Assembly (NCBI RefSeq): GCF_000012285.1
Contig: NC_007181.1
Location: forward strand, 660,001-692,000
DNA: 32,000 bases
DNA from: Sulfolobus acidocaldarius DSM 639
GTDB lineage: Archaea; Thermoproteota; Thermoprotei_A; Sulfolobales; Sulfolobaceae
Reading direction: 5' to 3'
This document shows, piece after piece, positions 9,605-27,024 of this stretch. How positions within the stretch are numbered: position 1 is the first letter of the stretch; the number at the start of each line of letters is the position of its first letter. The position numbers and the translations under genes were made by a program. A model generated the notes under the pieces. It did no database searches. It saw only the letters and a list, made by a program, of their open reading frames with translations, and had not been told where the DNA came from.

Positions 9605-10846
9605 TCATGCTCCAAATTTCTCGTACCTATATGAATAGTTCAGTAATAGATTTATTACATCCAACCCTTTTATTCTTAGAGACCCTTTACGTAACTGTTT
9701 TTCATTAAAATCATCTACGTTATCAGCAACTATATTATATGGAACGTATAACAAGAAAGGTACAGGGTCACCTGTGTGTTCCTTTACCTCAACAGGAGTT
9801 GCATGGTCTCCTGTGATAGCTATTATTAATTCTGAGCCATAAATGTCTAATACTCTACCTATCATTTTATCTATCATACTTATAGCATATAACTTACCGT
9901 CAATATTTCCGTCATGCGATGCTGCGTCAGTAGCTTTTAAGTGAAGAAATACCATGTCATATTCTTTAAGTAATTTCGATGCCTCTTCTGCTTTACCTAT
10001 ATAGTTTGTATCTAGTCCGCCTGTGGCTCCCTTGGGAGTAACTACATTCATTCCAATTTGGCTACATATACCTTTTATTAATGCTGTTGCAGATACTGCT
10101 GCCGCGTTAATCTTAGTGTAATCATAAAATTTTGGCAGGTCAACATATTGTGCTGCCCCCCTAAGAAGTACTATATTTGCAGGTAACTCTCCTCTTTCAA
10201 TTCTTTTTTTATTCAATTCTGAACTAGAAAGTATATCGTATATTCTATTTGTGAGTTTATTAAGAACTTCAGCAGTAATTTTAGCCTCTCTTGTATCATC
10301 AGTTGCCTCACTTTTTTTAACTTTAACGCCGGTCTCATGAGGATCAGTATCGCTAATTTTATCGCTTAAGCCTTTACCACTAAGGACAACTGCTACTCTA
10401 TGTTCTGTACCATGATAGAATTTAACTTGAACTCCATCTATTTCTCCAATCTTTGAGTTTAACTCTTGCACCAGGTCTTTTGCTTCATCAACCTTCCTTC
10501 CTGCTCTCCTATCTATCACAGTAAGGTTATTATCTACAGTTGCGAAGTTCCCTCTAAAAGCTACATCTCCTGCTTTGAGTCTTGCACCAGCTCCAATAGC
10601 TTCGAACGCTCCTCTTCCCCTATAATACTTAAATGGATCTATACCAAAGATAGCTAAATGGGATGTATCACTTCCTGGTACTATTCCAGGGGATATAGGG
10701 TCCATTAACCCAGCTATGGAGTTCTTAAGTAATTCACCTATATTTGGTTTCTCCACTGCCTCAAGAGGCGTCTTATGTTCTAGTTTAGTGACAGGCCGAT
10801 CTCCTAGACCATCTGCAATGAATAAGAGAATTTTATATTGCTTCAT
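9605..10846 (-). CDS. apgM: 2,3-bisphosphoglycerate-independent phosphoglycerate mutase, archaeal type
   Basis: [12 protein letters not shown]...[11 protein letters not shown]...[12 protein letters not shown]...ITGDHATP. Length is 413 aa. Confidence 0.9.
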
Positions 10847-13086
10847 GCTATCGCCCTCTTTAGCTCCTTTGAAAATCTCTCGTATCTTTGTATATCAGCT
10901 TGAGTAAGGGAAGCTTTTACAACATTCAAGGCTTTTTCGAAATCCTCTTTACTTACCTTAAATGAGGTTTTGTTCATACATTCTTTTATGTGCTTTTGGT
11001 AGCATTCCATGTTACCCTTGCATTCGTCTCTAGACTGTTTGTCACACATAGAGTAAATAGATCTCATGGCGTTAATAGTAGCTTCTCTAACCAAAGCCTC
11101 TAGGTCTGCTCCTGTATATCCTTCTGCTTTTTCTGCAATATCCTCAAGTGACACATCTTCAGCCAATGGCACATTTTTAGTGTGAACCTTCAAAATCTCA
11201 AACCTTGCAGTCTTATCAGGTGGAGGAACATAAATCAACCTATCAAACCTACCTGGTCTAAGCAAAGCAGGATCCAAAATATCAGGCCTATTAGTAGCTG
11301 CAATTATAACCACTTTATTTAATGGTACTATTCCGTCCATTTCTGCTAGTAGTTGGTTTACTATTCTTTCTGTTACTCCGCTGTCTGTTGATAGTCCTCT
11401 TATTGGTGCTATTGAGTCTATTTCATCGAAGAATATTACTGTTGGTGCTGCTTGTCTTGCTTTTCTGAATATTTCTCTTATTGCTTTTTCGCTTTCACCA
11501 ACCCATTTTGATAGTATTTCTGGTCCCCTTACTGCTATGAAGTTTGCACCACTCTCTGTTGCAACAGCCTTTGCAAGCATAGTCTTACCAGTACCAGGAG
11601 GACCAAACAACAAAATACCCTTAGGAGGTGTTACACCTGACTTAGTAAATAACTCAGGGAATCTCAAAGGCCATTCCACAGCTTCTCTTAGTTGTTGCTT
11701 AACGTTATCCAGTCCTCCAATATCATTCCAATTTACTTTAGGAACTTCTACATATACTTCTCTCAATAGAGATGGCTGTATTGATTTCAGTGCATTCAGG
11801 AAATCGTTCATAGATACTTTTAGTTCCTTTATTATTTCTGCAGGAATAGTTGGTTGATCGAGGTTTAATTTCTTCTCGTCTACGAATCTTCTTAGTGCAT
11901 ATATTGCAGCTTCTTTTGCCAAAGCCGCTAAATCTGCTCCAGTATAACCATATGTCATCTCGGCTAATTTATCGAGATCAACATCATCTGTAATAGGCAT
12001 ATTTCTAGTGTGAACTTGAAGTATATCCTTTCTTCCCTTGGTGTCGGGTGGTCTTATTTCAATTTCCCTATCGAATCTACCTGGTCTTCTAAGGGCAGGA
12101 TCTATTGCGTCTGGTCTATTTGTGGCACCAATAACTATAACTCTACCTCTGCCTTTAATTCCATCCATAAGTGTCAGTAGTTGCGCTACCACTCTTTTTT
12201 CTACTTCTCCGGTAACATCTTCTCTTTTTGGTGCTATGGCATCTATCTCGTCAATAAATATTATTGACGGTGCATTTTCTTCGGCTTCTTTAAATATCTC
12301 TCTTATTCTTTGCTCGCTCTCTCCATAGAATTTACTCATTATCTCTGGTCCATTAACGGTTATAAAGTAGGCTCCGATCTCATTTGCTAACGCTCTTGCT
12401 AGTAAGGTTTTACCTGTACCTGGTGGACCGTATAATAATATTCCCTTAGGTGGGTCAATTCCTAGTCTCTGGAATAGTTCTGGATGTCTCATTGGCCATT
12501 CCACAATTTCTCTTATTTTCTGTTTTGCTTCCTCTAGATCGCCTATATCTTCCCAGCTTACTTTAGGATAAGCTAATGAGCTCTCTTTTACTGGTTCTTC
12601 TCTTATTTCAATATTTGTACTACCTGTAACATAAACGTAATTTGAGGGTTGTGTATTCACAACTGTCAGTTCTAAGGTTCCCGTATAGATTGGTATTGGA
12701 AGTGTCTCTCCTTTAGCTAATGGTTTGTCCATTAGTGTATCTTTTACATATTCTACAAAACTATTGTCAAATCTAATTGGTTGTGTAGGTGCTAACACTA
12801 CTTTACTTGCTGGTGACACATTGGTTTTTCTGACAGTTACATCATCTCCTATTCCAACTTTTATAGACTTTCTGATGTAACCATCTATTCTAATTTCGTC
12901 ATCGGATATATCGTATGCAGGCATTACTTGAGCTAAAGCAGAATTCCCATCTTGTCCTATAATTTCTATGTAATCTCCGGCTTCTACATTTAATTTTCTC
13001 ATGGAAGTTTCTGAAATTCTAGCTACTTTTTTTCCAACGTCTCTCTGTCTAGCTTCAGTAACTCTAAACTTAATACTTTGACTCAT
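10843..13086 (-). CDS. cdc48: Cdc48/VAT-type AAA+ ATPase (N domain plus two AAA modules)
   Basis: Two Walker A motifs (GPPGTGKT), two DEID Walker B motifs, and an N-terminal double-psi barrel ([22 protein letters not shown]...[11 protein letters not shown]). I prefer the ATG at 13086 (MSQSIKFRV, 747 aa). The ORF-track start at 13185 would overlap the reverse gyrase start region. Confidence 0.95.
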
Positions 13087-13105
13087 GTGACATATTACTT
13101 TAACC

Positions 13106-13116
13106 TTTTTAAATAA
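13106..13116. promoter_or_regulatory. single A/T-rich TATA-like element between the divergent cdc48 and reverse gyrase genes
   Basis: TTTTTAAATAA lies 20-30 nt from both start codons (13086 on the minus strand, 13140 on the plus strand) within a 53-bp spacer. Confidence 0.3.
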
Positions 13117-13139
13117 GTCTAACTGTAATAAAATACTGT

Positions 13140-16100
13140 GTGCAGTCTTTGAGTGATATTCCACCCTCAATATATTTATTCTCATGTCCTAATTGTGGGA
13201 GATCTATTTCGACATATAGGTTACTTCTAGGATCAGTATGCAATATATGTCTAGAGGAAGATAAAGAATATAAAAATATTGGGGACTTAATAAAGGACAT
13301 AGAAAAACAGGGAAATTTAATCAAATTGAAAGATATTCAGAGAGTGCTAGATGATTATGAAAGTTTTGTTTCTGTATTTAGGAGATTATTGGGCTTTCCA
13401 CCCTTTGGTCCTCAAAAAAGTTGGATATATAGGTTGCTAAGCGGAGAGAGTTTTGCAATAATAGCTCCTCCTGGTTTAGGCAAAACCACCTTTGGTCTTA
13501 TTTCATCTATTTACCTCTATTTAAGAGGCAAGAAATCAATATTAGTGTTTCCAACTAAAAGCCTTGTAAGGCAAGCTATTGATAAATTATCCTCTTATAT
13601 ACAAAATCTAGCCGAGATAAAGGAGAATCCTCCAAAAGTCATTTATTATTACTCAGGAATGTCAAGCTTCAGAGAGAAAAGAGGCAGATGAAGGATTACA
13701 GTCAAAGACATTTGATATTTTCATATCTACAAACAGATTTTTGATTGATAATATAGATCAGATCTCCTCAACTAGTTATCAGTTCTTATTTGTAGACGAT
13801 GTAGATACCGCATTGAAGTCTAGCAAGAGTGCGCAGGCTATTCTTAAATTACTAGGATTTACGCCTAGTGACCAAGACAAAATTAAAGAGAGTTTGAAAA
13901 AATATAGAGAAAATACTCAGAAAAATGAACAAAATGAATACATTTTTGAGGAAATAGATAAAATTAGAAAAGATAGATTAGCATCAAAGACTGTTATATT
14001 TTCGTCAGCAACCTTAAATCGTAGTAATCCAATTTTAACGTCATTAGTGGGATTTAAGCCGGGAAGTTCAGTAATATATATCAGAAAAGTATATGACATG
14101 TATGTTAAGCAGCCTGATAAAGAACAAGAGACTTTTAACCTAATTAAATCTCTCCTGCATAGGTTGGGCGACGGCGGATTAATATTTGTGCCAGTAGACA
14201 AAAAACAAGAATACATCAAAAGATTACAAAGCGAGTTAAGTAATGAGTTCAATGTAGCTGCCATAACATCGACATCAGCAACTAAAATAGACGATTTCGC
14301 TAATGGTGAAATAGACGTATTAATCGGTTCTGCAACTCATTACGGTATTCTTGTAAGAGGGTTAGATCTTCCCTGGAGGGTAAAGTACTCAATATTTGTC
14401 GGAATACCTAAGTTCAAGTTCAGATTGGGAGAAAAGGTAAATCTACTCACTTTAAGTCGATTATTAAGTTTGATAGCGCTCATTACAAAGGATCAAGAAG
14501 TTATATACATATCAAGAAGAGTTAAGGATAAAATACGAAGGCTATCTCCTGCAGCATTAACCATGTTATCAGTTCAGGCAAAGGAAGGTAAACTAGAGGA
14601 TAGTATATTACTTAAAGCATACGATTTGTTAAATAAGTATCTTAGTAATCAAAATGTACTGAAGAGAATAAGCGAGATAGGAGATTTCGTATTATCTCCT
14701 GATAATGATATACTGATTCCAGACTATCTTACCTATGTTCAGGCTAGCGGAAGAACGTCCAGGATATATGCAGGAGACGTTACCACTGGTCTATCTATTC
14801 TATTAGTCGATGATTTTAATTTGTTTAGACTTCTAAATAAAAAGTTGCAATACATATTAGATGATATACAATGGCGAGAATTAGATGTTGAAAAGTGGAC
14901 AGCAGGAGACGTAGAAATAAAGAATCTAATTTCAAAAATTAATGAAGAGAGGAATGAGATATCGAAACTAAAAAATGAGGGTAATGTTGCGCCTGCACTG
15001 CAAAAAGTAAAGACTGTTCTCCTCGTTGTAGAATCTCCCAATAAAGCTAAAACTATATCCAGTTTCTTTTCAAGACCTAGTATTAGGCAAATTGGAAATA
15101 TGAGAGTATATGAGACAGTGCTAGGTGATAAAGTTCTTATGGTTACAGCATCTGGTGGTCATGTTTATGACTTAACTACTCAGGACATGGGTATTTATGG
15201 AGTAGATATAATGAAACAGAATTCCTCTTTAGTCTTCATTCCTATATATAATAGTATAAAGAAGTGTGAAAATAATCATCAGTTTACCGATTTCTTTGAA
15301 TCAAATAAGTGTCCTAGGTGTATGACAACAAAGGTGCGCTACGACAGTTTGAAATCTATAAACGTTTTAAGGAATTTAGCTGTAGAGGCTGACGAGGTGT
15401 TAATAGGCACCGATCCTGATACGGAAGGTGAGAAAATAGCATGGGATCTGTATTTAGCTCTAAGACCTTACAATAGTAATATCAGGAGAGCTGAATTTCA
15501 TGAGGTAACTAGAAAAGCTATATTACAAGCTATCAATCAGCCTAGAGAATTTAACGTAAATTTAGTTAAATCACAATTGGTAAGAAGAATTGAGGATAGA
15601 TGGATTGGGTTTAAACTATCGTCAATATTGCAGACTAGGTTTTGGCCTGAATATTGTAAATCTCTATCGTCGAATAAACAGCTTAACTGTAATGAAAATA
15701 AGAACCTGAGCGCAGGCAGGGTTCAGACTCCTGTCTTAAGCTGGATAGTTGACAGGTACACTGAATATCAGAGAAATAAGAGTAGAGTATATTATGGAAA
15801 GATAGACCAGTTACAAGATATAGTTATCTACGTCCCTAAGCAAGATGGTGTTAGAAAGAATAGTAAAATTGTTGTAGTTTTTAATGAAATTAATCAATTG
15901 GAGGAAGAGTTTGGTCCTCTACCCCCATATACTACAGATACATTACTTTCTGACTCTAACAATTTCTTTGGTCTTTCTGCACCAGAGACCATGAGAATTG
16001 CTCAAGATCTTTTTGAACTTGGACTCATAACTTATCATAGAACTGATAGTAACAGGATATCAAATACTGGAATTAGTGTAGCAGAGAACTATTTGAAAGA

Positions 16101-16887
16101 TGTTCTTGGTGATAAGTACACTAATATTTTTAAACCAAGAAGCTGGGGAGATGGTGGAGCTCATGAGGGGATTAGACCAACTAAACCTATCGATGTAGAA
16201 CAACTAAGATTATTAATAGAGGAGGGTGAGTTAGAGTTAGCGAAAAGATTAACTAATAATCATTTCAAAGTTTATGATATAATATTTAGACGATTTATTT
16301 CTAGTCAAATAATTCCTTTAAAAGTTCGCAAAGAAATTGTTAAAATAGAATTATATGGAGAAAATAAGAAAGAAAAAATAAATAGTAATCAAAATATAAT
16401 AGAAGTTATAACGGGGATTACTTTGCCCGGAATCGATACTGAAATCTCTAAATTTGCATATGTACCCGTAAGGAATGTATCAAGATCTGTGGCAGAGAGG
16501 CTAAAGGAGCTTGGGCGTTCTATACCAACAGATTTTTCAATTGAAATTTCTAATTCGTTTATCAAAAGCACAGTTAATTTATATACTCAGGCAGATTTAG
16601 TTATGGAGATGAAGAATAAAAAGATCGGCAGACCTAGTACTTATGCGACAATTATAGGTACTATTCTCAGAAGAGGTTATGTCTTAGAAAGTCTTAAAAC
16701 TAAAAAATTAATACCAACAAGGCTGGGCGTAGAGGTCAATAAGTATTTAAATGAAAATTACGGTAGATTTGTTTCAGAGGATAGAACAAGAAAATTGTTA
16801 CAGTTGATGGATATGGTTGAGGCAGGTCAAGAAAAATATGAAGAAGTCTTGAAACAAGTTTATGAAGAAATAAACGAAATACGGTGA
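13140..16887 (+). pseudogene. rgy: reverse gyrase locus interrupted by a 1-nt frameshift near 13665 (fragments 13140..13691 and 13621..16887)
   Basis: Fragment 1 carries the Zn finger CPNCGR...CNIC and helicase motif I APPGLGKT. Fragment 2, open from 13621, carries motif II FVDDVD, SAT, QASGRTSR, TOPRIM (VVESPNKAKTI, GTDPDTEGE), a second Zn finger, and the type IA active site ITYHRTDS. Skipping one A at 13664/13665 joins them into one 1248-codon frame. Confidence 0.9.
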
Positions 16888-16891
16888 AAAA

Positions 16892-17785
16892 ATGCTCATA
16901 GGTTTACTTCATTTAAGATTAAAGGAAGCTAGCAGAAAAGCTAACATTGAGAAAGCTCGTAGACTAATAAAAGTGGCTAAAGAGAAAGGAGCTAAACTGG
17001 TAGTCCTTCCCTCATTATTTCCTATAGGGAATCTTTTTGAGGTCTATGAAAACGAGAAGAAATCTCGTAGTGTAATACGAAATTTAGCTGAAAAGATTCC
17101 AGGTTCTATAAGCGAAATGCTAATTAATCTAGCGATGGAGGGAGAAGTTCACTTAATGGCTGGTCCAATTTTAGAGCAAGCCGGTCCAAAAATATTTCTT
17201 ACTAGTCTAATTATTTCACCTCAAGGTGAAATAATAGGTAAATATCGTAAAGTCATAATATCCGAGAAAGATACGAGGCTAGGAATATCTTCAGGAAAAG
17301 AGCCAATGTTCTTATCATTAGACAAGCGATACGGAATTATATCAGAAGACGATTTGTTTTCGCCGGAGATAAATAGAATTTTGGCGTTAGGAAGTAGTGT
17401 CGCTGTTATTGGCTCAATTAAGGCATATTCAAAGAATAACAGTAGCGACATTATTAAACATGTAGCTATATCAAGAACTCTAGAAAACGAAATACCATAT
17501 ATTTTAGTTGGTGAAATGATAGAGGACGAAAATGGAGATATTATAGGTAGTTCGCCAACCTTTGTTACCAGTGTAAACTCATTAGTGTACAAGCAAGCTG
17601 AAGAAGATGATACTGTATTATACGTCGAGACAACAGTCCTTCTACAGGAGAGTGGGGCTCAGGATAAATTAGGTAAAGTAGGTAATTTAGAAAATATTAT
17701 ATTAGGTCTTTGTAAAAATGCCAAGAAAATGAAAGGAGTAGAAAGAAAGAGGATCATGGATAAAGAAAAGATAGAGGATAACTAA
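16892..17785 (+). CDS. carbon-nitrogen hydrolase (nitrilase superfamily) homologue lacking the catalytic Glu and Cys
   Basis: [11 protein letters not shown] (normally LPE), GKYRKV (Lys retained), [13 protein letters not shown] (normally xxCxD..FPE), and RTLENE. It starts 5 nt after the rgy stop. Confidence 0.7.
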
Positions 17786-17801
17786 GTAAAACAAGTAATT
17801 T

Positions 17802-18131
17802 CTAAGAATTTAATTGATAAACTACAATTCTTCTGTTTTTTGTAACTTTAGCAAGCATCCCTTGTCTTTCTAGTTCCTCAAGAATCTTTTTAGCTACACT
17901 AATGGTCACATTTATTTTGCTTGCCAGTGTATACGGTGTTATAATTTTCTCCTTCTTTAATTCTTCTTGTACTTTAGACACAGTGTCTTTGTCTATAGTT
18001 ATAGATTTGGACGTTATCTCTTTTCCTGTTTTTGAAGTAGTCCTTTTCTGTCCTTTTTTCTGTTGTTCCTCCTCCATTTTCTTTACTCTTTTTTCTATTG
18101 TACCAATCGGCTTTTTACTTGCTCCGCCCAT
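17802..18131 (-). CDS. rps25e: 30S ribosomal protein S25e
   Basis: 109 aa. A Lys-rich N-terminus precedes a winged-helix tail: ITPYTLASKINVTISVAKKILEELERQGMLAKV. Confidence 0.85.
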   Translation of the reverse strand: MGGASKKPIGTIEKRVKKMEEEQQKKGQKRTTSKTGKEITSKSITIDKDTVSKVQEELKKEKIITPYTLASKINVTISVAKKILEELERQGMLAKVTKNRRIVVYQLNS

Positions 18132-18180
18132 TACTTACACCAGCTAATACTTTAATCCTTTAAACTATTAAACGTTTCTC

Positions 18181-18936
18181 ATGAGTAAACAGATTTCAGT
18201 AGATGAAATAATAGGAAGAATAGGTAAGATAGGATCCGTCTTTGGTATAAGTAGAAATGAACTAAAAGTGTATTTCCTCCTTTTAGTTAACGGAAAAATG
18301 ACAGCCAAAGACGTTTCCAATAGCATGAATATATCATACACGAAAGTATATAGTATTCTATCTAAATTAGAGGCTAGGGGATGGATAAAGAGAGTTGGAA
18401 AAAAGCCATCCCTTTATTCAGCTAACCCAGTAACAGATGTTTGGGTTAGCGTAAAGAGAAATATCATGGATATGGTTGAAAGAATAGAAAGAGAATTAAT
18501 CATTCCAATGAGTATTTTATTTTCTTCAACGACATCATTATATAACGTCATATCGGTGTCTTCAGAGAACTTACCTAATATGATTACCCAATTATTAGCA
18601 GAGCCATCGAATATTTACTATTTCGCATTATCATTTGACGGAATATTAAATGATCACATAGTGAAATTGTTAGAGAGTAATTCATATAGAAGTGACGTCA
18701 AGGTTATTTTAGTAGATAGTATGAAAATAGAGCTACCACAAGTCGTTCAAAAGAAATATGTTAATTCAATGTTTGGTAGCGGTCTTATTACGGATAAGGG
18801 TATCTTACTTATCATAAAGTCATCTGAGGAATCATTATATGGGCTATATTCAAATCACGTTTATTTCATAGATATAGGAAAGGTTTATTTTCAGTATTTA
18901 TGGGGTCAGTCTGAGAATTTAGGGAAAAATGCTTAA
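18181..18936 (+). CDS. TrmB-family transcriptional regulator
   Basis: N-terminal wHTH (ELKVYFLLLVNGKMTAKDVSNSMNISYTKVYSILSKLEARGWI), a coiled segment, then a C-terminal domain. Length is 251 aa. Confidence 0.7.
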   Translation: MSKQISVDEIIGRIGKIGSVFGISRNELKVYFLLLVNGKMTAKDVSNSMNISYTKVYSILSKLEARGWIKRVGKKPSLYSANPVTDVWVSVKRNIMDMVERIERELIIPMSILFSSTTSLYNVISVSSENLPNMITQLLAEPSNIYYFALSFDGILNDHIVKLLESNSYRSDVKVILVDSMKIELPQVVQKKYVNSMFGSGLITDKGILLIIKSSEESLYGLYSNHVYFIDIGKVYFQYLWGQSENLGKNA

Positions 18937-18973
18937 AAATGTAAGCGTTTCAAAGTGATATATACGATATAGG

Positions 18974-19126
18974 ATGAGAATAATTACAGTAAAGCTTCCG
19001 GAGCAATTCCTAGAAGCCATAGATGAGTTGGTTAATACAGGAAGATACACGTCTAGAAGTGAAGTTATAAGACTTGCATTAAATGATTTTATAAGGAAGG
19101 AACTATGGGTAAGTGATAGTGAGTGA
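18974..19126 (+). CDS. ribbon-helix-helix (CopG/NikR-type) DNA-binding protein, 50 aa
   Basis: Hand translation: [50 protein letters not shown]. This is the classic RHH pattern (beta-strand ITVKLP, G.Y.SRSE.IR.AL). It is below the ORF-track length cut-off, and the listed antisense ORF 18919..19149 covers it. Confidence 0.65.
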
Positions 19127-19171
19127 TGAAAGCTGGTATTTTTGATCAATGAAATAAGACATCAGAACTGA
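19123..19171 (+). ncRNA. candidate C/D-box sRNA with canonical 12-nt guide spacing
   Basis: GTGATGA (C) - AAGCTGGTATTT (12) - TTGA (D') - TCA - ATGAAAT (C') - AAGACATCAGAA (12) - CTGA (D), which is 7-12-4-3-7-12-4 = 49 nt. It lies in the gap between the RHH gene and trmI. The terminal stem is weak. Confidence 0.4.
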
Positions 19172-19183
19172 TTTTAAATTATA
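19172..19183 (+). promoter_or_regulatory. TATA-like box for trmI
   Basis: TTTTAAATTATA, centred about 26 nt upstream of the ATG at 19204. Confidence 0.35.
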
Positions 19184-19203
19184 CTCCTAGTATATTCTTC
19201 CCA

Positions 19204-19971
19204 ATGCCATTAAATGAAGGAGATCCTGTAGTAATATGGGTTGATCCAAAAAGAATATATTTAGTTAAGCTAATCCAAAACAAGGTTTTTAGTACAGATA
19301 AGGGTTACATTGATCTAGGTAAATTAATAGGCTTAGAATATGGTTCAGAAATACTGCTTTCCACTGGGATTAAGGCATATTTACTGAAGCCAACGCCTAT
19401 AGATCTATATAGAGGATTGAAAAGACTGTCCCAAGTATTGTATCCAAAAGATATAGGATATATAATCTACTCTTCAGGTGTTCAACCAGGGAGTACTATT
19501 GTGGAAGCAGGAACGGGATCAGGATTCCTTACTCTTTCACTTGCATATTTTTTAGGTAATTCGACGAAAATCGTGACTTATGACGTTAGGGAAGATATGC
19601 AAGATATTGCCAAAAGGAATGCATCCTATTTAGGGCTCTCAGATAGAATAATATTTAAGTTAAAGGATATAAGGGAAGGTATAGAAGAGGTCAATGTAGA
19701 CGCAATATTCTTAGATATGCCAGACCCTTGGAATGCAATGGAGACTGTGAGAAAAGCACTGAAGCCCTCAGGGTCTTTAATCATATTTGTTCCCACTGTA
19801 AACCAAATAGAAAAAGTAATACCATCACTAAGTGATTTCGTAGATGTTCATGCTGAGGAGTTAATAATAAGGGAGTATCAAATGAAGGAGAATGCTGTTA
19901 GACCAAGAAATATAGGAGTAATCCATACTGGATACATAATTAGAGGAAGAAAACGAATAAAAGTGAGTTAA
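19204..19971 (+). CDS. trmI: tRNA (adenine-N1)-methyltransferase TrmI (Gcd14 family)
   Basis: The N-terminal beta domain plus the SAM motif [11 protein letters not shown] and [11 protein letters not shown] are diagnostic of m1A57/58 methyltransferases. Confidence 0.85.
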
Positions 19972-19988
19972 TATTAATTCATACCAAG

Positions 19989-20318
19989 ATGTCTTCAAAG
20001 ATTAAAGTTTATGCGGACGCCGTAGTTAAGTATGAAACTAATCTGAAAGAGATAGAGAAAAAGATCGCTGAAGACGGAAAGAAGCTTATTTTACTTTCTG
20101 AAAGTCTTACCCAAAAATTGAAATCCGTAGCAGAAGAATACGTAACCAGTATTTCTGCTGAGTTGGAAAGGAAGTATGCAGAAGAAGCAAATAAACTTAG
20201 ACTAAAGTATGGTGAAGAGAGAAGTAAGGAGATTAATAAAATAAAGCAGTTAGCAGAAGCTAATCTAGATAAGGCTGTAGATTTTGTTATATCAAAACTT
20301 CTGGAGGCTTATAAATGA
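19989..20318 (+). CDS. coiled-coil protein, possibly an A-type ATP synthase peripheral-stalk subunit (H-like)
   Basis: 109 aa, Lys/Glu/Ala-rich and predicted all-helical. It is coupled by an ATGA overlap to the subunit C-like gene. The assignment rests on context and composition only. Confidence 0.35.
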   Translation: MSSKIKVYADAVVKYETNLKEIEKKIAEDGKKLILLSESLTQKLKSVAEEYVTSISAELERKYAEEANKLRLKYGEERSKEINKIKQLAEANLDKAVDFVISKLLEAYK

Positions 20319-21274
20319 GTACAAACGTATATGTAACAGCATTAGCTAGGGTATATAAAGCTAATACTCTAACCAAATCCACAGTATTAGAGCTATTAGA
20401 CACTAAGAACTGGAAAGACGCTGTTACAATACTTAAAGACAAAGGTCTAATTCCAGAGATTCCCTCAAAGTTAGAGGATGCGGAAAATTTATTGAGGGAC
20501 AAGGCTGTAAAAACTGTTGCAACATTGAAACAATACACATTAAACTCTAAGGTGGCTGCTCAAATTTTAGATTTATACGAATTTATACTAACTCTGGAGG
20601 ATATAGAAGCTGTAATATCAGCTAGTGTTCTAGGTAAGAAGGATGGTGTAAATGTTAGGTACTTAAAGGAGCTTGTTGATGTAAGACCACAATCATTAGA
20701 GGATGTAGTTTCTACTGTGAAAGGAACCTATAAGGAAGCTCTTAGATTTTCTCTGGATAAAGCAGGGAATAAAACGCCATCTCGAATAAATTCCTACTTA
20801 GAATACTATTTCGTCGATCGGCTATATCAAATCATAAGTAATATAACCGGAGATGCGAGGATGAAGGCACAAGAGATTATATGTGGTTATGTTGACTATG
20901 TCGCAGTTTCCCTTGCATTCACGTTAAAGGAGCAGGAGAGGTCTATATGTAAGATCTCATCAGATATAATTAGAGATATAATTAACATGGCTAGACCAGA
21001 TGAACTTAGTAATATATTGAGCAGAACGAGTTATGCAAAACTTCTCACCTTAGGTAATCCTTATGATTTATTAGCCTCATTTAAACGTGCTGCTAGAGTT
21101 CTTGCTCGAAACGCTTCAATAAACGCATTTATGAATTCACCATCTGTAGTGTCTGTTTTGGCAATTGCGGAGTTAACAAAATTAGATTATGAGGATTTAG
21201 TAACAATACTAAATGGTATAGCTCTTAAAATAAATGACAAGATAAAGAACCAACTATCATTTGATATAGTCTAA
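20315..21274 (+). CDS. atpC: A-type (V-type) ATP synthase subunit C (AC39/d family)
   Basis: The N-terminus NVYVTALARVYKANTLTKSTVLELLDTKNWKDAVTILKD follows the family pattern Y..aRvr.....Ll......L.......a...L. Length is 319 aa, all helical. Confidence 0.6.
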   Translation: MSTNVYVTALARVYKANTLTKSTVLELLDTKNWKDAVTILKDKGLIPEIPSKLEDAENLLRDKAVKTVATLKQYTLNSKVAAQILDLYEFILTLEDIEAVISASVLGKKDGVNVRYLKELVDVRPQSLEDVVSTVKGTYKEALRFSLDKAGNKTPSRINSYLEYYFVDRLYQIISNITGDARMKAQEIICGYVDYVAVSLAFTLKEQERSICKISSDIIRDIINMARPDELSNILSRTSYAKLLTLGNPYDLLASFKRAARVLARNASINAFMNSPSVVSVLAIAELTKLDYEDLVTILNGIALKINDKIKNQLSFDIV

Positions 21275-21613
21275 AATTTTTGAATCTATTATATATTCAC
21301 CATCTTTATTTCTAACTATTGTGTAATCAGGTATCTCAGGTGGGTCTGGCATATTTGGATATGGTTTCTCCCTGCCTAGATAAATCCATCTAAGTTTACC
21401 TTTATTCTTTTCTAACTTGTACCAGTATTTACCAATGTAAATGTACTTCTTATCGTTCTTGTAGACTAAATGATAAGGCTTTAAATATACTCCAAAGTCC
21501 TTTATACTATCGTTATAATCGTAAACTTTTGACTTCAATTCTGATATAATTGTCTCAAAAACTCTTTGTGGTACTTTTACCAGCATTGTATACACTAATC
21601 TTTTTACTTTCAA
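21257..21613 (-). CDS. hypothetical protein
   Basis: 118-aa ORF with normal codon usage and the Tyr/Lys-rich motif YIYIGKYWYKLEKNKGKLRWIYLGREKP. I cannot assign a family. Confidence 0.55.
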   Translation of the reverse strand: MKVKRLVYTMLVKVPQRVFETIISELKSKVYDYNDSIKDFGVYLKPYHLVYKNDKKYIYIGKYWYKLEKNKGKLRWIYLGREKPYPNMPDPPEIPDYTIVRNKDGEYIIDSKILDYIK

Positions 21614-21645
21614 AAAAAGAAATCAGTAATGCGAAGGGTATTAGC

Positions 21646-22626
21646 ATGAGAACAAGAACTATAAGTAATACAGGGATCGAGATTTCCGAGCTAGGGATTG
21701 GGCTTTGGAGTTTGGTGACGAAAGAATGGGGTGCTGACGTTAATAAAGCTGAAGACATACTAAGACGTGCTTTTGAATTAGGGATTAACTTTTATGATAC
21801 TGCCGATGTATATGGAGAAGGATTAGGGGAAAGTATTTTAGGTAAAGTATTCTCCTCTAAGCGAGATAAAGTAGTGATTCTAACTAAAATAGGTCTAGAC
21901 TTCTACCATAACTCGGTGAATGGGAAATACCCTCGAAACTATAGTCTTGATTATCTATCATTTGCTTTTGAAAAAAGCCTTGAACGTTTGAACACAGACT
22001 ATGTTGATATACTTATGATTCACAACCCTAAAATAAACGATATAAAGAATAAAAAATTGTATGACTTTTTGGATAGCCTGAGAAAGGACGGTAAAGTACG
22101 GGTTATAGGTGTAGCTTTAGGTCCAACTTTAGGGTGGGGTGAGGAAGGATTAGAGGCAATAAAAATGGGATATGGTTCTCTTGAATATATATATAACTTA
22201 ATTGAACTAAGACCAGGAATCGAGTTCTTGAATTATGACATAGCCCACTTTGTTAGAGTTCCTCATGCATCAGACGCTTTAAATGAATCTAAGTGGCCTA
22301 TATATAACGATCCTAAATTTCATAGAAGATATAAGGATATAAACTGGATAAATAAAGCAATTGAAAGATCAAGAGACCTTATATCATTTGCAAGGTCTAA
22401 GCATATGACTCTAGCTCAATTAGCACTTAAGTTCATTTTATATAATAAGAGAGTTACCTCAGTAATTCCCAATGTAGCATCTATTAGTGAGTTAGAAGAA
22501 TTTGCAAAAGTTGAAAATTTGGAACAATTAACCGAAACAGAATACGATTATCTGTATTCTTACTCAATACGAAATTATAGAGATTTAAATGACGAGAGTA
22601 TTGAGGAGACTAAACAGTATAAGTAG
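21646..22626 (+). CDS. aldo/keto reductase family oxidoreductase
   Basis: MRTRTISNTGIEISELGIGLWSL...INFYDTADVYGEG..E..LG...DYVDILMIHNP. I chose the ATG at 21646; the ORF-track extension from 21550 overlaps the neighbouring gene and is hydrophobic junk. Confidence 0.85.
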   Translation: MRTRTISNTGIEISELGIGLWSLVTKEWGADVNKAEDILRRAFELGINFYDTADVYGEGLGESILGKVFSSKRDKVVILTKIGLDFYHNSVNGKYPRNYSLDYLSFAFEKSLERLNTDYVDILMIHNPKINDIKNKKLYDFLDSLRKDGKVRVIGVALGPTLGWGEEGLEAIKMGYGSLEYIYNLIELRPGIEFLNYDIAHFVRVPHASDALNESKWPIYNDPKFHRRYKDINWINKAIERSRDLISFARSKHMTLAQLALKFILYNKRVTSVIPNVASISELEEFAKVENLEQLTETEYDYLYSYSIRNYRDLNDESIEETKQYK

Positions 22627-23185
22627 CTAAATATTCTAAAAATTTTCTAAATGCTATAGCTCTATGAGAATACTTATTCTTCTCTTCTGTACTCATTTCT
22701 CCAAAAGTTAGGTTTACTCCATCTGGTATAAATATAGGATCATATCCAAACCCTTTGGTTCCTCTTATTTCAGTGCTAATACTACCATATACTCTACCCT
22801 CAAATAACTTTAGTTGAGTACTATCAACATAAGCTAATACAGTAGAGAAGTACGCTTTTCTATTTTTTTCCCCTTCTAATAATCTAATAATCCCTTCCAT
22901 CCCTATCTTTCTTCTGACGTAATTACTATAAGGTCCTGGAAATCCGTTTAACGCCTCTATAAATAATCCACTATCTTCTACAATCAGAGGTCTATTGATT
23001 TGATTATACGCTATGATTGCTGAAAATTTAACAATTTCCTCTAGCGAATCAGCCTGAATCTCCACCTTAGGTATGTTAAACCATATCAGTGAGACGTTAA
23101 AATTCTGAGCTATACTATTCATTTCTTTGAACTTATTCTCATTGGACGTGACTAGTATTATCTCTCTTTTTTCTTCTTTCTTCAA
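22610..23185 (-). CDS. non-canonical purine NTP pyrophosphatase (ITPase, HAM1/RdgB family)
   Basis: [11 protein letters not shown]...VEDSGLFIEALNGFPGPYS...GFGYDPIF...KNKYSHRAIAF. TTG start. Confidence 0.85.
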   Translation of the reverse strand: MKKEEKREIILVTSNENKFKEMNSIAQNFNVSLIWFNIPKVEIQADSLEEIVKFSAIIAYNQINRPLIVEDSGLFIEALNGFPGPYSNYVRRKIGMEGIIRLLEGEKNRKAYFSTVLAYVDSTQLKLFEGRVYGSISTEIRGTKGFGYDPIFIPDGVNLTFGEMSTEEKNKYSHRAIAFRKFLEYLATYTV

Positions 23186-23798
23186 CGTATCTTCCCCTCA
23201 TTCTAATCTCCTTCATTTTTTCTATAACTTTGTCTGAGTCCATCATGGTAGAGTATCCTTCCTTGAATCCTTCAAATATTTCGTCTTTAAAATGACTGTG
23301 AATACTTTCTAGGGATCTCAATAAAACATGAATATCTGTTGCAAAATCCTCAATATCATTACTTTTCTTAGCAAGTCCGAAATCAATTAGAAATAATCCT
23401 TCATCTGTGTATATCATATTTGTCGTAGTTAGATCTCCGTGGATTATATTAGCCTTATGAAGAAGGGATATCATTAAGCCCATTTCTTTTCCTAACTCCC
23501 TTAAGTTTCTTCCTTGGTTAAATATATCCCTTAGTGTAGTACCCTCTATATATTCCATTACTATCAGGAATTGTATAGGATCAACCAAAAGTATTGCTGG
23601 TACATTTACCCCAGATTTTAGAGCTGAGTATATCATTCTAGCTTCCAATTTGGTTCTGCTCTCATTAATGGCTCTATCAACAATATCGTTTCTATAACTC
23701 TTTTTTATCCTTTTTTTAAACACAGCATGTATGCCTGCAAAATACCCCTCGTATATTATAGCTTCCGCTCCTCTTTTTATCTCTCTGACTATCTCCAT
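23139..23798 (-). CDS. bud32: KEOPS complex kinase/ATPase Bud32 (PRPK)
   Basis: RGAEAIIY...E.R....A...GV.VP...MEYIEG...[12 protein letters not shown]...LIDFGLA is the atypical RIO-like kinase fold. It overlaps the kae1 stop by 10 nt. Confidence 0.85.
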
Positions 23799-24787
23799 GG
23801 TATATCAACTTTATCTATTCTCCACCTGGGTCTTATTATGGACTTTTCTATAGGTATAAATACTCTGTGTTTAGCCGCCAATAATCCTGTATATGCTATC
23901 ATCGCACCATTATCACCGGAATATTGTGAAGGAACTATTTTTAGCTCAGCCCCCCTATCAGCAGCTAATTTCTCAAGTTTACTCTTTAGACTAACACTAG
24001 CCGCAACACCACCTACAACTAGAATTTCATTTTTTCCAGTAAGAGCCATTGCTCTCTCGGTAGCCTCCAATAGCATGTCAAAAGCTATTTCTCTGACACT
24101 ATAGCAGATATCTGGTAAATTTCTCTTGCTTAACAGTTTTAGGGCTGCAGTTAGTAAACCTGAATAAGACATATCTTGTCCTTTCACTATATATGGTAGT
24201 TCAACATACTCCTTACCTTTGTCTGCACAAATATCTATTTGGTGAACACCATTTACAACATAAGGAGGAGCAAGTCCAGCTTCTCTCACAAATACGTCAA
24301 TCATATTACCTAATGCGATGTCGAGTGTTTCTCCGAAAACTCTATACTTTCTATCAAAGAATATAGAAATTATAGTGTTTCCTCCTGAAAGGTATAAGAT
24401 AAGAGGATCTTTTGCATTCGTAGAGTACATACCAATTTCTATGTGAGCTATTCCGTGATTTACAGGGATAAGTTTCTTATTGAAAGATAAAGCTAATGCT
24501 CTAGCAACTGTAGCACCTACTCTCAATGCAGGACCTATACCTGGACCTAAAGCTACCGCTACGCCATCTATATCTTTCATATTTACTTTGGCTTCATCTA
24601 AAGCTTTTTTCACTATAATAGGCGCTTGTTCAACATGATGTCTAGCTAACTCTGATGGTTTCATGCCACCTTGTGGCGGTATGTAAGTATCCTTAACATT
24701 AGCTAAAATTTTGATACTATTGTTTTCTTCTTTGACTATACCTACACCAAAAGTATGAGCGGTACTCTCTATTCCTAATATTATCAT
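23789..24787 (-). CDS. kae1: tRNA N6-adenosine threonylcarbamoyltransferase Kae1
   Basis: [16 protein letters not shown]...NHGIAHIE...YLSGGNT...VVGGVAAS. Length is 332 aa. Confidence 0.95.
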
Positions 24788-24987
24788 CTGGATTTACCTA
24801 TAAATTCGGTATAGCCACATTTACCGCATGCCCATCGTTCCAGAGGCTTCATGTGATGAGCCATGATACTGCCGCATCTAGGACATTTTTTATTCTTTAG
24901 CTTTATTGAATCTTGTTCTACTTCGTAATAAGTTCTTACTACAGCTTTAGATTGATTTTCATTGTTGTTTTTGGGCACTCTTACCAC
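24784..24987 (-). CDS. rps27ae: 30S ribosomal protein S27ae
   Basis: 67 aa. Zn ribbon CPRCGS...CGKCGYTEF. Confidence 0.9.
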
Positions 24988-25315
24988 CCTTCTTTATCTT
25001 TTGCCCGGTATCTCTTCCTATTAAATATTGCGGTTCAAGTTTTTGGAGACTATCCTTATCTTTGTATACATTCACTCTTGCATAACTTATTCCAGATCCA
25101 TAGTTTGTAAATACCTTCTTTACAACCACAAGATCCTCAGCTGTGCTAAATGTAGAGGCTATAGCTTTCACTAATTCTTTCCTTGATGGAGTTCCAGAAC
25201 CTATGTGAAAGAGTTTAATGTATAGTTCTCTCCTATTAGCAACATTATTTTGAATATCTCTTTCAACTATACCTTCAACCTTATCTGAGACCTTAATTTT
25301 GATTTGTTGAGACAT
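24959..25315 (-). CDS. rps24e: 30S ribosomal protein S24e
   Basis: [27 protein letters not shown]...[21 protein letters not shown] is typical S24e. Confidence 0.9.
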
Positions 25316-25341
25316 CGGATAATAAAAATAGGAAATAGACT

Positions 25342-26139
25342 TTAAGAGTTACGGAGATCCTTTATAATATCTTCAGCAACTTTTTTACCTGACAGAACCA
25401 TGGAACCGAATATTGGACCCATTCTAGGTAAACCTCTAACTTCGGTTACTGACATACCTGCAACATAGAGTCCAGGAGCAACTACACCTGTTTGTTCTAC
25501 AGTAAGTTTTTCAGCCATTTCACTATAAGCAGATCTTTCACCTGGAATAACTATTCCTAACTCTGGTATCTTTCTTGAAGCTACTGCAACAACCTCTGCG
25601 TCATGACCTGTTGCATCAACAACAGCTTTAGCTGATATAAACACCGGGTCAACGTGGAGTCCAGCCATTTGAGTTGCTGTCCATTCTACTGCAACACCTG
25701 CAACTCTAAGTGGATTTTCTCTAAATATTACATCATCTACAGTAACTCCATGTATAATTTTTGCTCCAGCATCAATTGCAGATGCAGCTAGTTTTGCCAT
25801 AAATTCTGCTGAATCTACGATGTAAACCCCATCCTCAACTTTTTCTAGTCTTATATTCATTTCTTTTAATACTTCATCAGCAGGACTCTCAATTACTAAT
25901 TTATGAAATAGCATGGCACCTCCTCCTATACCTCCTCCAAAGCTTAACCTTCTCTCGAAAACTAATGTTTTTAAGCCGTGTTTTGCTAAGTAATAAGCTG
26001 CGCTCATCCCAGCAGGTCCTGCTCCCACAATAACTACATCATTTTCAACAAAGTTCATCCAATCTTCCATAGTTTGCTTTATAATATACCTGCTAATTTT
26101 CACTTCATCTATTGCTTTGATTTTGATTGAATCTGACAT
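25342..26139 (-). CDS. thi4: thiamine thiazole synthase Thi4
   Basis: FAD/NAD fold [19 protein letters not shown]...[10 protein letters not shown]...DATGHDAEV...GLYVAGM...[13 protein letters not shown]. Confidence 0.9.
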
Positions 26140-26157
26140 GTCTTATCAATTAAATAG

Positions 26158-26166
26158 GTTATAAAC
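26158..26166 (-). promoter_or_regulatory. TATA-like box for thi4
   Basis: The minus strand reads GTTTATAAC, about 23 nt upstream of the thi4 ATG (26139). Confidence 0.3.
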
Positions 26167-26221
26167 TCACTTATATGTATTTTTATATCATACTTATTAA
26201 CCTATTTGTAGAGTAATAGTT

Positions 26222-26431
26222 ATGCCAATGCAGTTAAATACGAATATAACAGCCGTAAGGTGCAGTTGGTGCGGTAAAGTCATAAATAATGAACCTATTG
26301 TGGTCAAGACTTGTTGTAATAACAAACCATGGGTTTTTTGTAGCAGGCAGTGTTACAATATGTGGGTGAGAGATTGGCTGAAGAGTCAAGAACAACAGAG
26401 AGGAGCAAAGAAAAAAGGAGGAATGTTGTAG
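26222..26431 (+). CDS. small TRASH-type zinc-finger protein with a basic tail
   Basis: 69 aa. C14-x2-C17-x22-C40-x3-C44 (CSWCGK...VFCSRQC) fits the TRASH / zf-FCS metal-binding pattern. A TATA-like element lies upstream. Confidence 0.55.
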   Translation: MPMQLNTNITAVRCSWCGKVINNEPIVVKTCCNNKPWVFCSRQCYNMWVRDWLKSQEQQRGAKKKGGML

Positions 26432-27024
26432 TAGGCATATCAGGTGCTAGTGGAGTAATTTATGGTATAAGAACAGTAAAAACTTTGAATAATTTAGGCT
26501 ACGATCAAGAAATTATTATCTCGAATGGTGCTATAAAAGTAGCTGAAAAAGAATGTGGTTTAGATTTAGTTTCTACAATTAGTAAATTTGTAGACGGTAA
26601 AATATATAGGGAGGAAGAAATAGATGCTCCACCCTCTAGTTCTAGTCATGTGGTTAAATCTCTGGGAATGGTTGTAGTTCCTTGTAGCATTAAGACTCTT
26701 GCGGAAATATCTAATGGTTTATCTTCTAATTTAATATCTCGTACAGCCTTAAACTTTCTACGAATTAAGGGTAAATTGGTATTAGTTTTGAGAGAAACTC
26801 CCCTAGGGGCTGTAGAGCTAAGGAACGCTTTAAGGGTAACTAATGCAGGTGCAATAGTATTACCTGCATCACCCGGATTTTACCATAATCCAAAAACCTT
26901 TGATGATTTAGTGAATTTTATAGTGGGAAAAATCTTAGATATGCTTGGAATAGAGAATAACTTGTATAAACATTGGGATACTTCTTCTAAAACAGATCAA
27001 CGTCCTTGCGACCAAGTTTCTTAG
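26350..27024 (+). CDS. ubiX: flavin prenyltransferase UbiX
   Basis: VVVGISGASGVIYG...VVVPCSIKTLAEISNG...LVLRETPL...ASPGFYH. The start is uncertain: GTG 26350, GTG 26362 or TTG 26374. The conserved core begins only at about 26425. Confidence 0.85.
   Translation: MLQYVGERLAEESRTTERSKEKRRNVVVGISGASGVIYGIRTVKTLNNLGYDQEIIISNGAIKVAEKECGLDLVSTISKFVDGKIYREEEIDAPPSSSSHVVKSLGMVVVPCSIKTLAEISNGLSSNLISRTALNFLRIKGKLVLVLRETPLGAVELRNALRVTNAGAIVLPASPGFYHNPKTFDDLVNFIVGKILDMLGIENNLYKHWDTSSKTDQRPCDQVS

What the first reader, a model, noticed from the sequence alone, without database searches (positions are those of the whole stretch)
13621..13741. Reverse gyrase is split by a single-nucleotide frameshift between helicase motifs I and II
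The gene reads ...KVIYYYSGMS in frame 0, then runs into SFREKRGR-stop at 13689-13691. The +1 frame is open from 13621 and continues ASERKEADEGLQSKTFDIFISTNRFLIDNIDQ...FVDDVD through to the topoisomerase end at 16887.

Dropping one of the two A residues at 13664/13665 (tcAAgct) restores one continuous frame of 175 + 1073 = 1248 codons. That is the size expected for a crenarchaeal reverse gyrase.

As written, fragment 1 would hold only the Zn finger and Walker A. Fragment 2 has no start codon before the TTG at 13741. The break is therefore unlike the natural helicase/topoisomerase split known in Nanoarchaeum.

Four readings are possible:
- An assembly or homopolymer error.
- A genuine inactivating mutation, tolerated because Sulfolobales usually carry a second reverse gyrase paralogue.
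- A +1 recoding event within the 71-nt frame overlap, for example at AGA-TGA-A.
- An engineered lesion: the extra A creates a HindIII site, AAGCTT, at 13664-13669.

Reverse gyrase is the hallmark hyperthermophile gene, so a true loss or recoding would matter.
Basis: partly seen in the sequence, partly recalled or inferred. Interest (0 to 1): 0.7.

Follow-up and report, generated by a model that had tools for sequence, protein, structure and literature searches.

The report
One-base error splits reverse gyrase gene
The apparent break in the reverse gyrase gene is one extra A found only in the 2005 genome record of Sulfolobus acidocaldarius DSM 639; every other sequencing of this gene lacks it, so the gene is almost certainly intact and the split is a database artefact.

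Summary
ORF 13140..13691 and the +1 frame (open from 13621, first start TTG 13741, ending at 16887) together make one reverse gyrase gene, broken by an extra A at 13664/13665.

Removing one A gives a 1248-aa protein. It is residue-for-residue identical to Q08582 / AAA72346.1, the TopR1 cloned from the same strain (DSM 639) in 1993. That exact sequence is indexed in 110 blocks of the public assembly collection.

The 1048-aa fragment occurs in one record only, AAY80206.1, on a 2,225,959-bp contig. That is the 2005 DSM 639 genome, window = about 660001-692000.

Eight independent DNA loci all read TCAGCT. Seven differ from the window gene by this single base only.

A published read-mapping table lists exactly this base (673664) as a "reference-only" deletion in all 47 Yellowstone isolates. 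The N8 and Ron12/I proteins are intact. TopR1 protein is quantified by mass spectrometry in a DSM 639 derivative.

Best explanation: a base-calling or assembly error in the record (about 0.88). A private mutation of the sequenced stock is possible (about 0.08). Recoding and engineering are not supported. Interest is low.

The parts
13140..16887 (+). The whole topR1 / rgy gene (Saci_0839, reverse gyrase 1) of S. acidocaldarius DSM 639, as it reads once the spurious base is removed (1248 codons plus stop).
   Evidence: The repaired translation is an exact match to Q08582.3 / AAA72346.1 / WP_176586667.1. TIGR01054 scores 1005 bits against a cutoff of 471.7 on the +1-frame part alone. Pfam finds zf_Rg, DEAD, Toprim and Topoisom_bac. 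All motifs are intact.
13664..13665 (+). The AA dinucleotide, one A of which is extra. It corresponds to genome coordinate 673664 of the 2005 record.
   Evidence: L001-L008 all read GGAATGTCAGCTTCAGAG and none reads ...TCAAGCTT.... Anderson et al. [quoted passage not shown] 13741 - 77 = 13664.
13140..13691 (+). Apparent fragment 1 (183 aa): Zn finger, Walker A and motif Ia, followed by 8 out-of-frame residues and TGA. It is not annotated in the 2005 record.
   Evidence: None of eight start-codon variants of this fragment occurs among about 15 billion proteins. The published table calls the position 'intergenic'.
13741..16887 (+). Apparent fragment 2 (1048 aa, TTG start). This is the annotated Saci_0839 CDS, AAY80206.1, an N-terminally truncated annotation.
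   Evidence: Exact match to AAY80206.1, seen on one contig of 2,225,959 bp only. No gene with this product is on record in the assembly collection.
13621..13691 (+). The 71-nt stretch in which both frames are open.
   Evidence: No relative carries the frameshift, so no recoding signal can be conserved.
13664..13669 (.). HindIII site AAGCTT created by the extra A. It is a coincidence.
   Evidence: There are 12 AAGCTT sites in the 32-kb window. A random one-base insertion creates a palindromic hexamer in 8.6-9.3% of trials and a HindIII site in 0.25-0.34%.
13106..13116 (.). TATA-like element TTTTTAAATAA, about 28 nt upstream of GTG 13140. It is the probable promoter of the full-length gene (inferred).
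   Evidence: Read from the sequence. Three Logan contigs begin at 13138, 13139 and 13140. Not tested further.

Best explanation
The window is part of the 2005 Sanger genome record of Sulfolobus acidocaldarius DSM 639 (CP000077, about 660001-692000). That record contains one spurious extra A at 13664/13665 (genome position 673664) inside topR1 (Saci_0839, reverse gyrase 1). The extra base is a base-calling or assembly error. It shifts the frame after Ser175 and creates a stop 8 codons later. As a result, the annotators called only the downstream 1048-codon piece from the first available TTG and left the 5' part as 'intergenic'.

In the organism the gene is one continuous 1248-codon ORF. It encodes the classical, biochemically characterised reverse gyrase: a Zn finger, an SF2 helicase-like module, and a Toprim/topoisomerase IA module with Tyr965.

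Shown here:
- the base is absent from every other sequence of this gene;
- the repair reproduces a known protein exactly.

Inferred: the extra base arose in sequencing or assembly rather than in the culture.
For: - The repaired protein equals, residue for residue, Q08582.3 / AAA72346.1 (named in the source as reverse gyrase 1 of strain DSM 639) and WP_176586667.1. It is seen on 56 contigs and indexed in 110 blocks of the assembly collection.
- The truncated 1048-aa product exists only as AAY80206.1, on one 2,225,959-bp contig. It is on record in no other assembly. No start variant of fragment 1 exists anywhere.
- Eight independent DNA loci all carry the single A: two NCBI Illumina drafts, three Logan assemblies of separate sequencing runs, two JGI metagenome contigs, and strain SUSAZ. 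Seven differ from the window gene by that one gap and zero mismatches over 3748 nt. SUSAZ has 109 mismatches plus the same gap.
- Over window 11498-26887 (15.4 kb), this gap is the only difference from L001.
- Anderson et al. 2017 (PMC5554439, Supplementary Table S2, 'REFERENCE-ONLY MUTATIONS') list 673664 as a 1-nt deletion in all 47 Yellowstone isolates mapped to the DSM 639 reference. It is one of 15 single-base indels of that kind.
- The N8 and Ron12/I proteins (AGE70785.1, AGE73056.1) read straight through GMSASERKEADEG.
- Saci_0839 / Q08582 has TMT-MS protein abundances in the data set of the S. acidocaldarius heat-shock study, PMC10653856. That the strain used is MW001, a DSM 639 derivative, rests on my own knowledge.
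- Orthologs conserve the +1-frame residues immediately after the lesion.
Against: - The raw 2005 traces cannot be inspected. A real insertion in the particular culture that was sequenced is therefore not formally excluded.
- The context is only a dinucleotide (CAAG), not a long homopolymer where Sanger or assembly errors are most common.
- Anderson's table prints 'A' for N8 and Ron12/I at this position. Taken at face value this would make the extra A shared by three genomes. It conflicts with their deposited intact proteins, so the reference columns were probably filled by default.
- I could not establish which of the Logan runs come from DSM 639-derived laboratory strains.
Confidence: 0.88

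Rival explanations
1. The extra A was really present in the DNA of the particular DSM 639 culture sequenced in 2005. It would be a spontaneous +1 insertion that inactivated topR1, tolerated in the laboratory because the second reverse gyrase, TopR2, carries the essential load.
For: - In S. islandicus M.16.4, topR1 is non-essential by Tn-seq and by targeted disruption, whereas topR2 mutants grow very slowly (PMC6249222).
- S. acidocaldarius has a topR2 (PMC10653856).
- The sequence context is not a classic error-prone homopolymer.
Against: - The same strain, cloned in 1993, gives the intact sequence (AAA72346.1 / Q08582).
- TopR1 protein is measured in the S. acidocaldarius heat-shock data set.
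- No other assembly or read-derived contig carries the allele.
- The record carries 15 single-base indels against all 47 mapped isolates. By my own estimate from published Sulfolobus mutation rates (own knowledge, not tested here), that is more than a few laboratory passages would fix.
Confidence: 0.08
2. Programmed +1 ribosomal frameshifting (recoding) within 13621-13691, for example at AGA-TGA-A, produces full-length reverse gyrase from a genuinely shifted gene.
For: The two frames overlap by 71 nt, and frame 0 ends in a stop codon, the kind of site where +1 shifts can occur. Programmed frameshifting has been described in Sulfolobales (own knowledge: -1 frameshifting in S. solfataricus fucA1).
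Against: - The shifted arrangement occurs in one record only. All conspecific strains and all orthologs have one continuous frame, so no selected recoding signal can exist.
- A shift at AGA-TGA would replace ASERKEAD by SFREKRGR in a conserved stretch.
- tRNA-Arg re-pairing from AGA to GAU would be poor (inference from the codons).
Confidence: 0.005
3. An engineered lesion: the A was inserted deliberately to create a HindIII site and knock out topR1.
For: The extra A creates AAGCTT at 13664-13669.
Against: - AAGCTT occurs 12 times in the window.
- 8.6-9.3% of random one-base insertions in this sequence create some palindromic hexamer, so the site is a post-hoc coincidence.
- The record is that of a wild-type type strain (AAY80206.1 is labelled DSM 639).
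- There is no marker, scar or other difference within 15 kb.
Confidence: 0.005
4. A naturally split reverse gyrase made of two polypeptides, as in Nanoarchaeum equitans or Methanopyrus kandleri.
For: Natural splits of reverse gyrase exist (PMC8185306). Separately expressed halves of the S. acidocaldarius enzyme can reconstitute activity (cited in PMC2504306).
Against: - The break lies inside RecA-like domain 1, between motifs Ia and II. It is not at the helicase/topoisomerase boundary (N. equitans) and not inside the topoisomerase module (M. kandleri).
- Residues 176-200 would be lost, and fragment 2 would need a TTG start 50 nt after the stop.
- The split is not found in any other strain.
Confidence: 0.005

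Closest known systems
Reverse gyrase 1 (TopR1, rgy, Saci_0839; UniProt Q08582; GenBank AAA72346.1) of Sulfolobus acidocaldarius DSM 639
   Same: It is the same gene. After removal of one A, the translation is identical over all 1248 residues, with the same neighbours (CDC48-type AAA ATPase upstream and divergent, CN-hydrolase downstream).
   Different: Only the extra A at 13664/13665 in this record differs. It truncates the annotated CDS to 1048 aa.
Adjacent out-of-frame reverse gyrase ORFs of Aeropyrum camini (WP_082398367 / WP_082398368)
   Same: Two adjacent ORFs, out of frame by a single base, that together make one reverse gyrase. [quoted passage not shown]
   Different: A different organism and break position. 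Here the error reading can be backed by many independent sequences of the same species and strain.
Naturally split reverse gyrases of Nanoarchaeum equitans and Methanopyrus kandleri
   Same: Reverse gyrase encoded as two ORFs (PMC8185306).
   Different: Those splits are fixed, and each part is separately expressed. They lie at the domain boundary (N. equitans) or within the topoisomerase part (M. kandleri). Here the break is between helicase motifs Ia and II, is a 1-nt frameshift in a contiguous gene, and is unique to one record.
Programmed ribosomal frameshifting in Sulfolobales (own knowledge: S. solfataricus alpha-fucosidase fucA1, -1 shift)
   Same: Two overlapping ORFs in different frames that together encode one protein.
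   Different: In fucA1 the arrangement is real and has a slippery heptamer. Here the shift would be +1, no recognised signal is present, and the arrangement is absent from all other sequences of the gene.

Membership tests
Reverse gyrase (TIGR01054 rgy) | Whole-protein match to the equivalog model above its curated cutoff | tested here: met
   The +1-frame part alone scores 1005.3 bits against a cutoff of 471.7, covering profile positions 159-1172. Fragment 1 covers profile positions 3-165. The two matches abut at the lesion.
Reverse gyrase (TIGR01054 rgy) | N-terminal zinc finger plus SF2 helicase-like module with Walker A, motif II (DDVD) and motif VI | tested here: met
   C16..C37; GLGKT 112-116; PTK 138-140; DDVD 219-222; QASGRTSR 534-541. 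Pfam finds zf_Rg and DEAD.
Reverse gyrase (TIGR01054 rgy) | C-terminal Toprim plus topoisomerase IA module with a catalytic tyrosine | tested here: met
   Toprim 627-788 and Topoisom_bac 805-1238. ESPNKA 631, DPDTEGE 758, ITYHRTDS with Y965. The best solved relatives are reverse gyrases 4ddt and 1gku, E about 1e-190.
Reverse gyrase (TIGR01054 rgy) | A single uninterrupted ORF joining both modules | tested here: not met
   Not met in the window as written. Met in all eight independent loci and in all deposited proteins of the species other than AAY80206.1.
Programmed +1 ribosomal frameshift (recoding) site | The frameshifted arrangement is conserved in related strains and species | tested here: not met
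   0 of 8 independent loci carry it. 120 listed homologues include full-length single-ORF proteins from all close relatives.
Programmed +1 ribosomal frameshift (recoding) site | A recognisable shift-prone site where the P-site tRNA can re-pair in the +1 frame | tested here: inconclusive
   By inspection of the frame-0 codons, AGA-TGA-A gives poor re-pairing (AGA to GAU). No formal model was run.
Programmed +1 ribosomal frameshift (recoding) site | A trans-frame protein product with a junction peptide | not testable with these tools
   TMT-MS abundances exist for Q08582, but peptide-level data were not available.
Naturally split reverse gyrase (N. equitans / M. kandleri type) | The split is fixed in the lineage and each part has its own start | tested here: not met
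   The split is unique to one record. Fragment 2 has no start before TTG 13741, which would drop residues 176-200.

The most novel reading that the evidence does not exclude
The extra A was genuinely present in the DSM 639 culture sequenced in 2005. That laboratory stock would then have been a spontaneous topR1 null growing normally on TopR2 alone. It would be an accidental demonstration that reverse gyrase 1 is dispensable in S. acidocaldarius at laboratory growth temperature.
Probability: 0.08. Interest if true: 0.3.

Novelty: not a real feature. Interest (0 to 1): 0.06.

Why it matters
The biological importance is small. The hallmark hyperthermophile gene is not lost, split or recoded in this organism.

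The practical importance is for annotation. The widely used reference record of a model archaeon carries a truncated Saci_0839 CDS and labels the first 525 nt of topR1 as intergenic. This can mislead promoter, ChIP-seq, Tn-seq, RNA-seq and proteomic analyses that use those coordinates.

The same published table suggests about 14 further single-base indels of the same kind in the record. Several of them lie in long 'intergenic' gaps that may hide other falsely broken genes.

Tried and rejected
- Exact-pattern scans for either allele (CTCAGGAATGTCA N{0,1} GCTTCAG...) found nothing in genome contigs or metagenome contigs, although the pattern works on the window and on fetched loci. The source genome seems to be masked or absent there.
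- The search for related loci with the repaired protein in genome contigs returned no relative. I therefore could not fetch the TopR2 locus of the same genome, and I rely on the literature for its existence.
- Exact-protein look-ups of the 1048-aa fragment and of the 1245-aa N8/Ron12 form in the contig index found nothing, so no N8 DNA was obtained.
- The 2005 genome paper (PMC1169522) is not held.
- Literature searches for an explicit statement that this base is an error in CP000077, or for MW001 re-sequencing variant lists, found none. A search for the run accessions identified none of the three sequencing runs; its only hit was on the JGI sample number.
- The peptide-count columns of the proteomics table are misaligned in the stored text, so peptides on either side of the junction could not be counted.
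- tRNA and Rfam scans of the window were empty.
- Rejected ideas: the HindIII site as evidence of engineering, recoding, and a natural split (see rival explanations).

Full report
**1. The observation**

- A frame-0 ORF starts at GTG 13140 and ends at TGA 13689-13691 (183 aa, ...KVIYYYSGMSSFREKRGR*).
- The +1 frame is closed by TAA 13618-13620 and open from 13621. It runs to 16887, and its first possible start is TTG 13741 (1048 aa).
- The two frames overlap by 71 nt.
- AAGCTT lies at 13664-13669.
- Deleting one A of 13664/13665 fuses the frames into 1248 codons.

NCBIfam's reverse gyrase equivalog TIGR01054 matches fragment 1 at profile positions 3-165. It matches the +1-frame part at positions 159-1172 (1005 bits; cutoff 471.7). 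The two pieces therefore abut at the lesion.

There is one small correction. Fragment 1 also holds helicase motif Ia, so the break lies between motifs Ia and II.

**2. Where the window comes from**

The repaired protein is 99% identical to the reverse gyrase of S. acidocaldarius SUSAZ, which reads GMSASERKEADEGLQ across the junction.

Exact-sequence look-ups gave two results.
- The repaired 1248-aa sequence is identical to Q08582.3 / AAA72346.1 / WP_176586667.1, which the source names 'Reverse gyrase 1 ... strain ATCC 33909 / DSM 639'. It is seen on 56 contigs.
- The 1048-aa fragment is AAY80206.1, 'reverse gyrase [S. acidocaldarius DSM 639]'. It is seen on a single contig of 2,225,959 bp.

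The window is therefore part of the 2005 DSM 639 genome record.

A published variant table fixes the coordinates. [quoted passage not shown] The window is thus about 660001-692000. Other published coordinates agree with this: SNPs 671497 and 671599 in Saci_0838, and ChIP peaks 674867 and 676039 in Saci_0839.

**3. Is the extra A seen anywhere else?**

It is not.
- The intact protein is indexed in 110 blocks of the public assembly collection. The truncated product is in none.
- None of eight start-codon variants of fragment 1 occurs among about 15 billion proteins.
- I fetched eight independent DNA loci:
  - two Illumina draft genomes of 2012 Yellowstone isolates (L001, L002);
  - three Logan assemblies of separate sequencing runs (ERR13709218, ERR13709272, SRR7070787);
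  - two contigs of JGI metagenome 3300017469;
  - the complete SUSAZ genome.
- All eight read GGAATGTCAGCTTCAGAG, and none has the AA allele.
- Seven differ from the window gene by that single gap and no mismatch in 3748 nt. SUSAZ has 109 mismatches and the same gap.
- Across window 11498-26887 (15.4 kb), this gap is the only difference from L001.

Anderson et al. 2017 mapped Illumina reads of 47 isolates to the DSM 639 reference. They list this base under 'REFERENCE-ONLY MUTATIONS' as deleted in all 47, alongside 14 other single-base indels of the same pattern.

That table prints 'A' for N8 and Ron12/I as well. This conflicts with their deposited intact proteins. I take those columns to be defaulted for indels, and I flag this as an unresolved inconsistency.

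**4. Function**

The repaired protein has every feature of a reverse gyrase:
- a Zn finger (residues 16-37);
- the helicase motifs GLGKT, PTK, DDVD and QASGRTSR;
- the Toprim motifs ESPNKA and DPDTEGE;
- the topoisomerase IA tyrosine in ITYHRTDS (Y965).

Its closest solved structures are the T. maritima and A. fulgidus reverse gyrases.

Orthologs conserve the +1-frame residues directly after the lesion, but not the frame-0 tail.

In the S. acidocaldarius heat-shock study, Saci_0839 / SACI_RS04020 / Q08582 has both transcript values and TMT-MS protein abundances. The text also treats topR2 as a second gene of this organism.

**5. The rival readings**

(a) A real private mutation of the sequenced stock. 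This cannot be excluded without the traces or the stock. It would be tolerable, because topR1 is dispensable in S. islandicus. However, the 1993 clone of the same strain is intact. The record also carries many such reference-only single-base indels. I give this reading about 0.08.

(b) Recoding. The frameshifted arrangement is not conserved in any relative, and AGA-TGA-A offers poor +1 re-pairing. A shift there would also replace a conserved stretch. I regard this reading as effectively refuted.

(c) Engineering. AAGCTT occurs 12 times in the window, and about 9% of random one-base insertions create some palindromic hexamer. There is no scar or marker. I reject this reading.

(d) A natural split. 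The known splits lie at the domain boundary (N. equitans) or inside the topoisomerase part (M. kandleri). This break is inside RecA domain 1 and is unique to one record. I reject this reading.

A very similar case has already been flagged in the literature. Adjacent out-of-frame reverse gyrase ORFs in Aeropyrum camini are described as a possible pseudogene or sequencing error.

**6. Verdict**

The split is an artefact of one database record, with confidence about 0.88. The gene is the well-known intact TopR1.

Novelty: not a real feature. Interest: 0.06.

The residual value is as an erratum. The reference annotation truncates Saci_0839 and calls its first 525 nt intergenic. About 14 similar single-base discrepancies elsewhere in the record deserve the same check.

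Noticed in passing
window 13086-13140: The divergent genes Saci_0838 (CDC48-type AAA ATPase, annotated start ATG at 13086 on the minus strand) and topR1 (GTG 13140) are only 54 bp apart. A single AT-rich element, TTTTTAAATAA (13106-13116), sits midway, about 27-28 nt from each start. This suggests one shared TATA region serving two divergent leaderless transcripts.
   Followed up: no
L003, L006, L007 (Logan contigs), 5' ends at window 13138, 13139, 13140: Three assemblies from separate sequencing runs begin within 2 nt of the GTG start codon of topR1. Two of them also end at nearly the same place (window 18094 and 18097). If these runs are RNA-seq, the 5' ends would mark a leaderless transcription start at GTG 13140. 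The type of run could not be looked up.
   Followed up: partly
L001 7726, 8101, 8358 and L002 8110, 8366 (window about 11051-11589, inside the CDC48 gene): The Illumina draft assemblies carry single-N scaffold joins with duplicated overlaps of about 100 nt inside the CDC48-type ATPase gene, so gene callers split it into 2-3 pieces there. In the window the gene is intact (780-aa ORF). This is the opposite situation to topR1: here the drafts are wrong and the 2005 record is right.
   Followed up: yes
window 10843-13185 (minus strand): The longest ORF of the CDC48-type ATPase starts at ATG 13185 and would overlap the topR1 start by 46 nt. The published annotation uses the downstream ATG at 13086 (MSQSIKF...), which fits the short divergent intergenic region better.
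   Followed up: no
outside the window: 2005 DSM 639 genome record, positions 201457, 348976, 359302, 628472, 863050, 863063, 863070, 933759, 963993, 1133248, 1225699, 1225967, 1791107, 2002816: Anderson et al. 2017, Supplementary Table S2, lists 14 more single-base indels in which all 47 mapped isolates differ from the reference. Many lie in long 'intergenic' gaps or between non-consecutive locus tags, so they may mark other genes falsely broken in the record, or real pseudogenes.
   Followed up: no
PMC5554439, Supplementary Table S2, row 673664: The table shows 'A' for N8 and Ron12/I at this position, yet the deposited N8 and Ron12/I reverse gyrase proteins (AGE70785.1, AGE73056.1) are intact. 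The reference columns for indels in that table appear unreliable.
   Followed up: partly
bioRxiv 10.1101/2024.08.28.610084: This preprint twice calls a thymidylate-kinase gene 'saci_0839'. Elsewhere in the same text it is Saci_0893, so this is a typographical swap and has nothing to do with topR1.
   Followed up: yes
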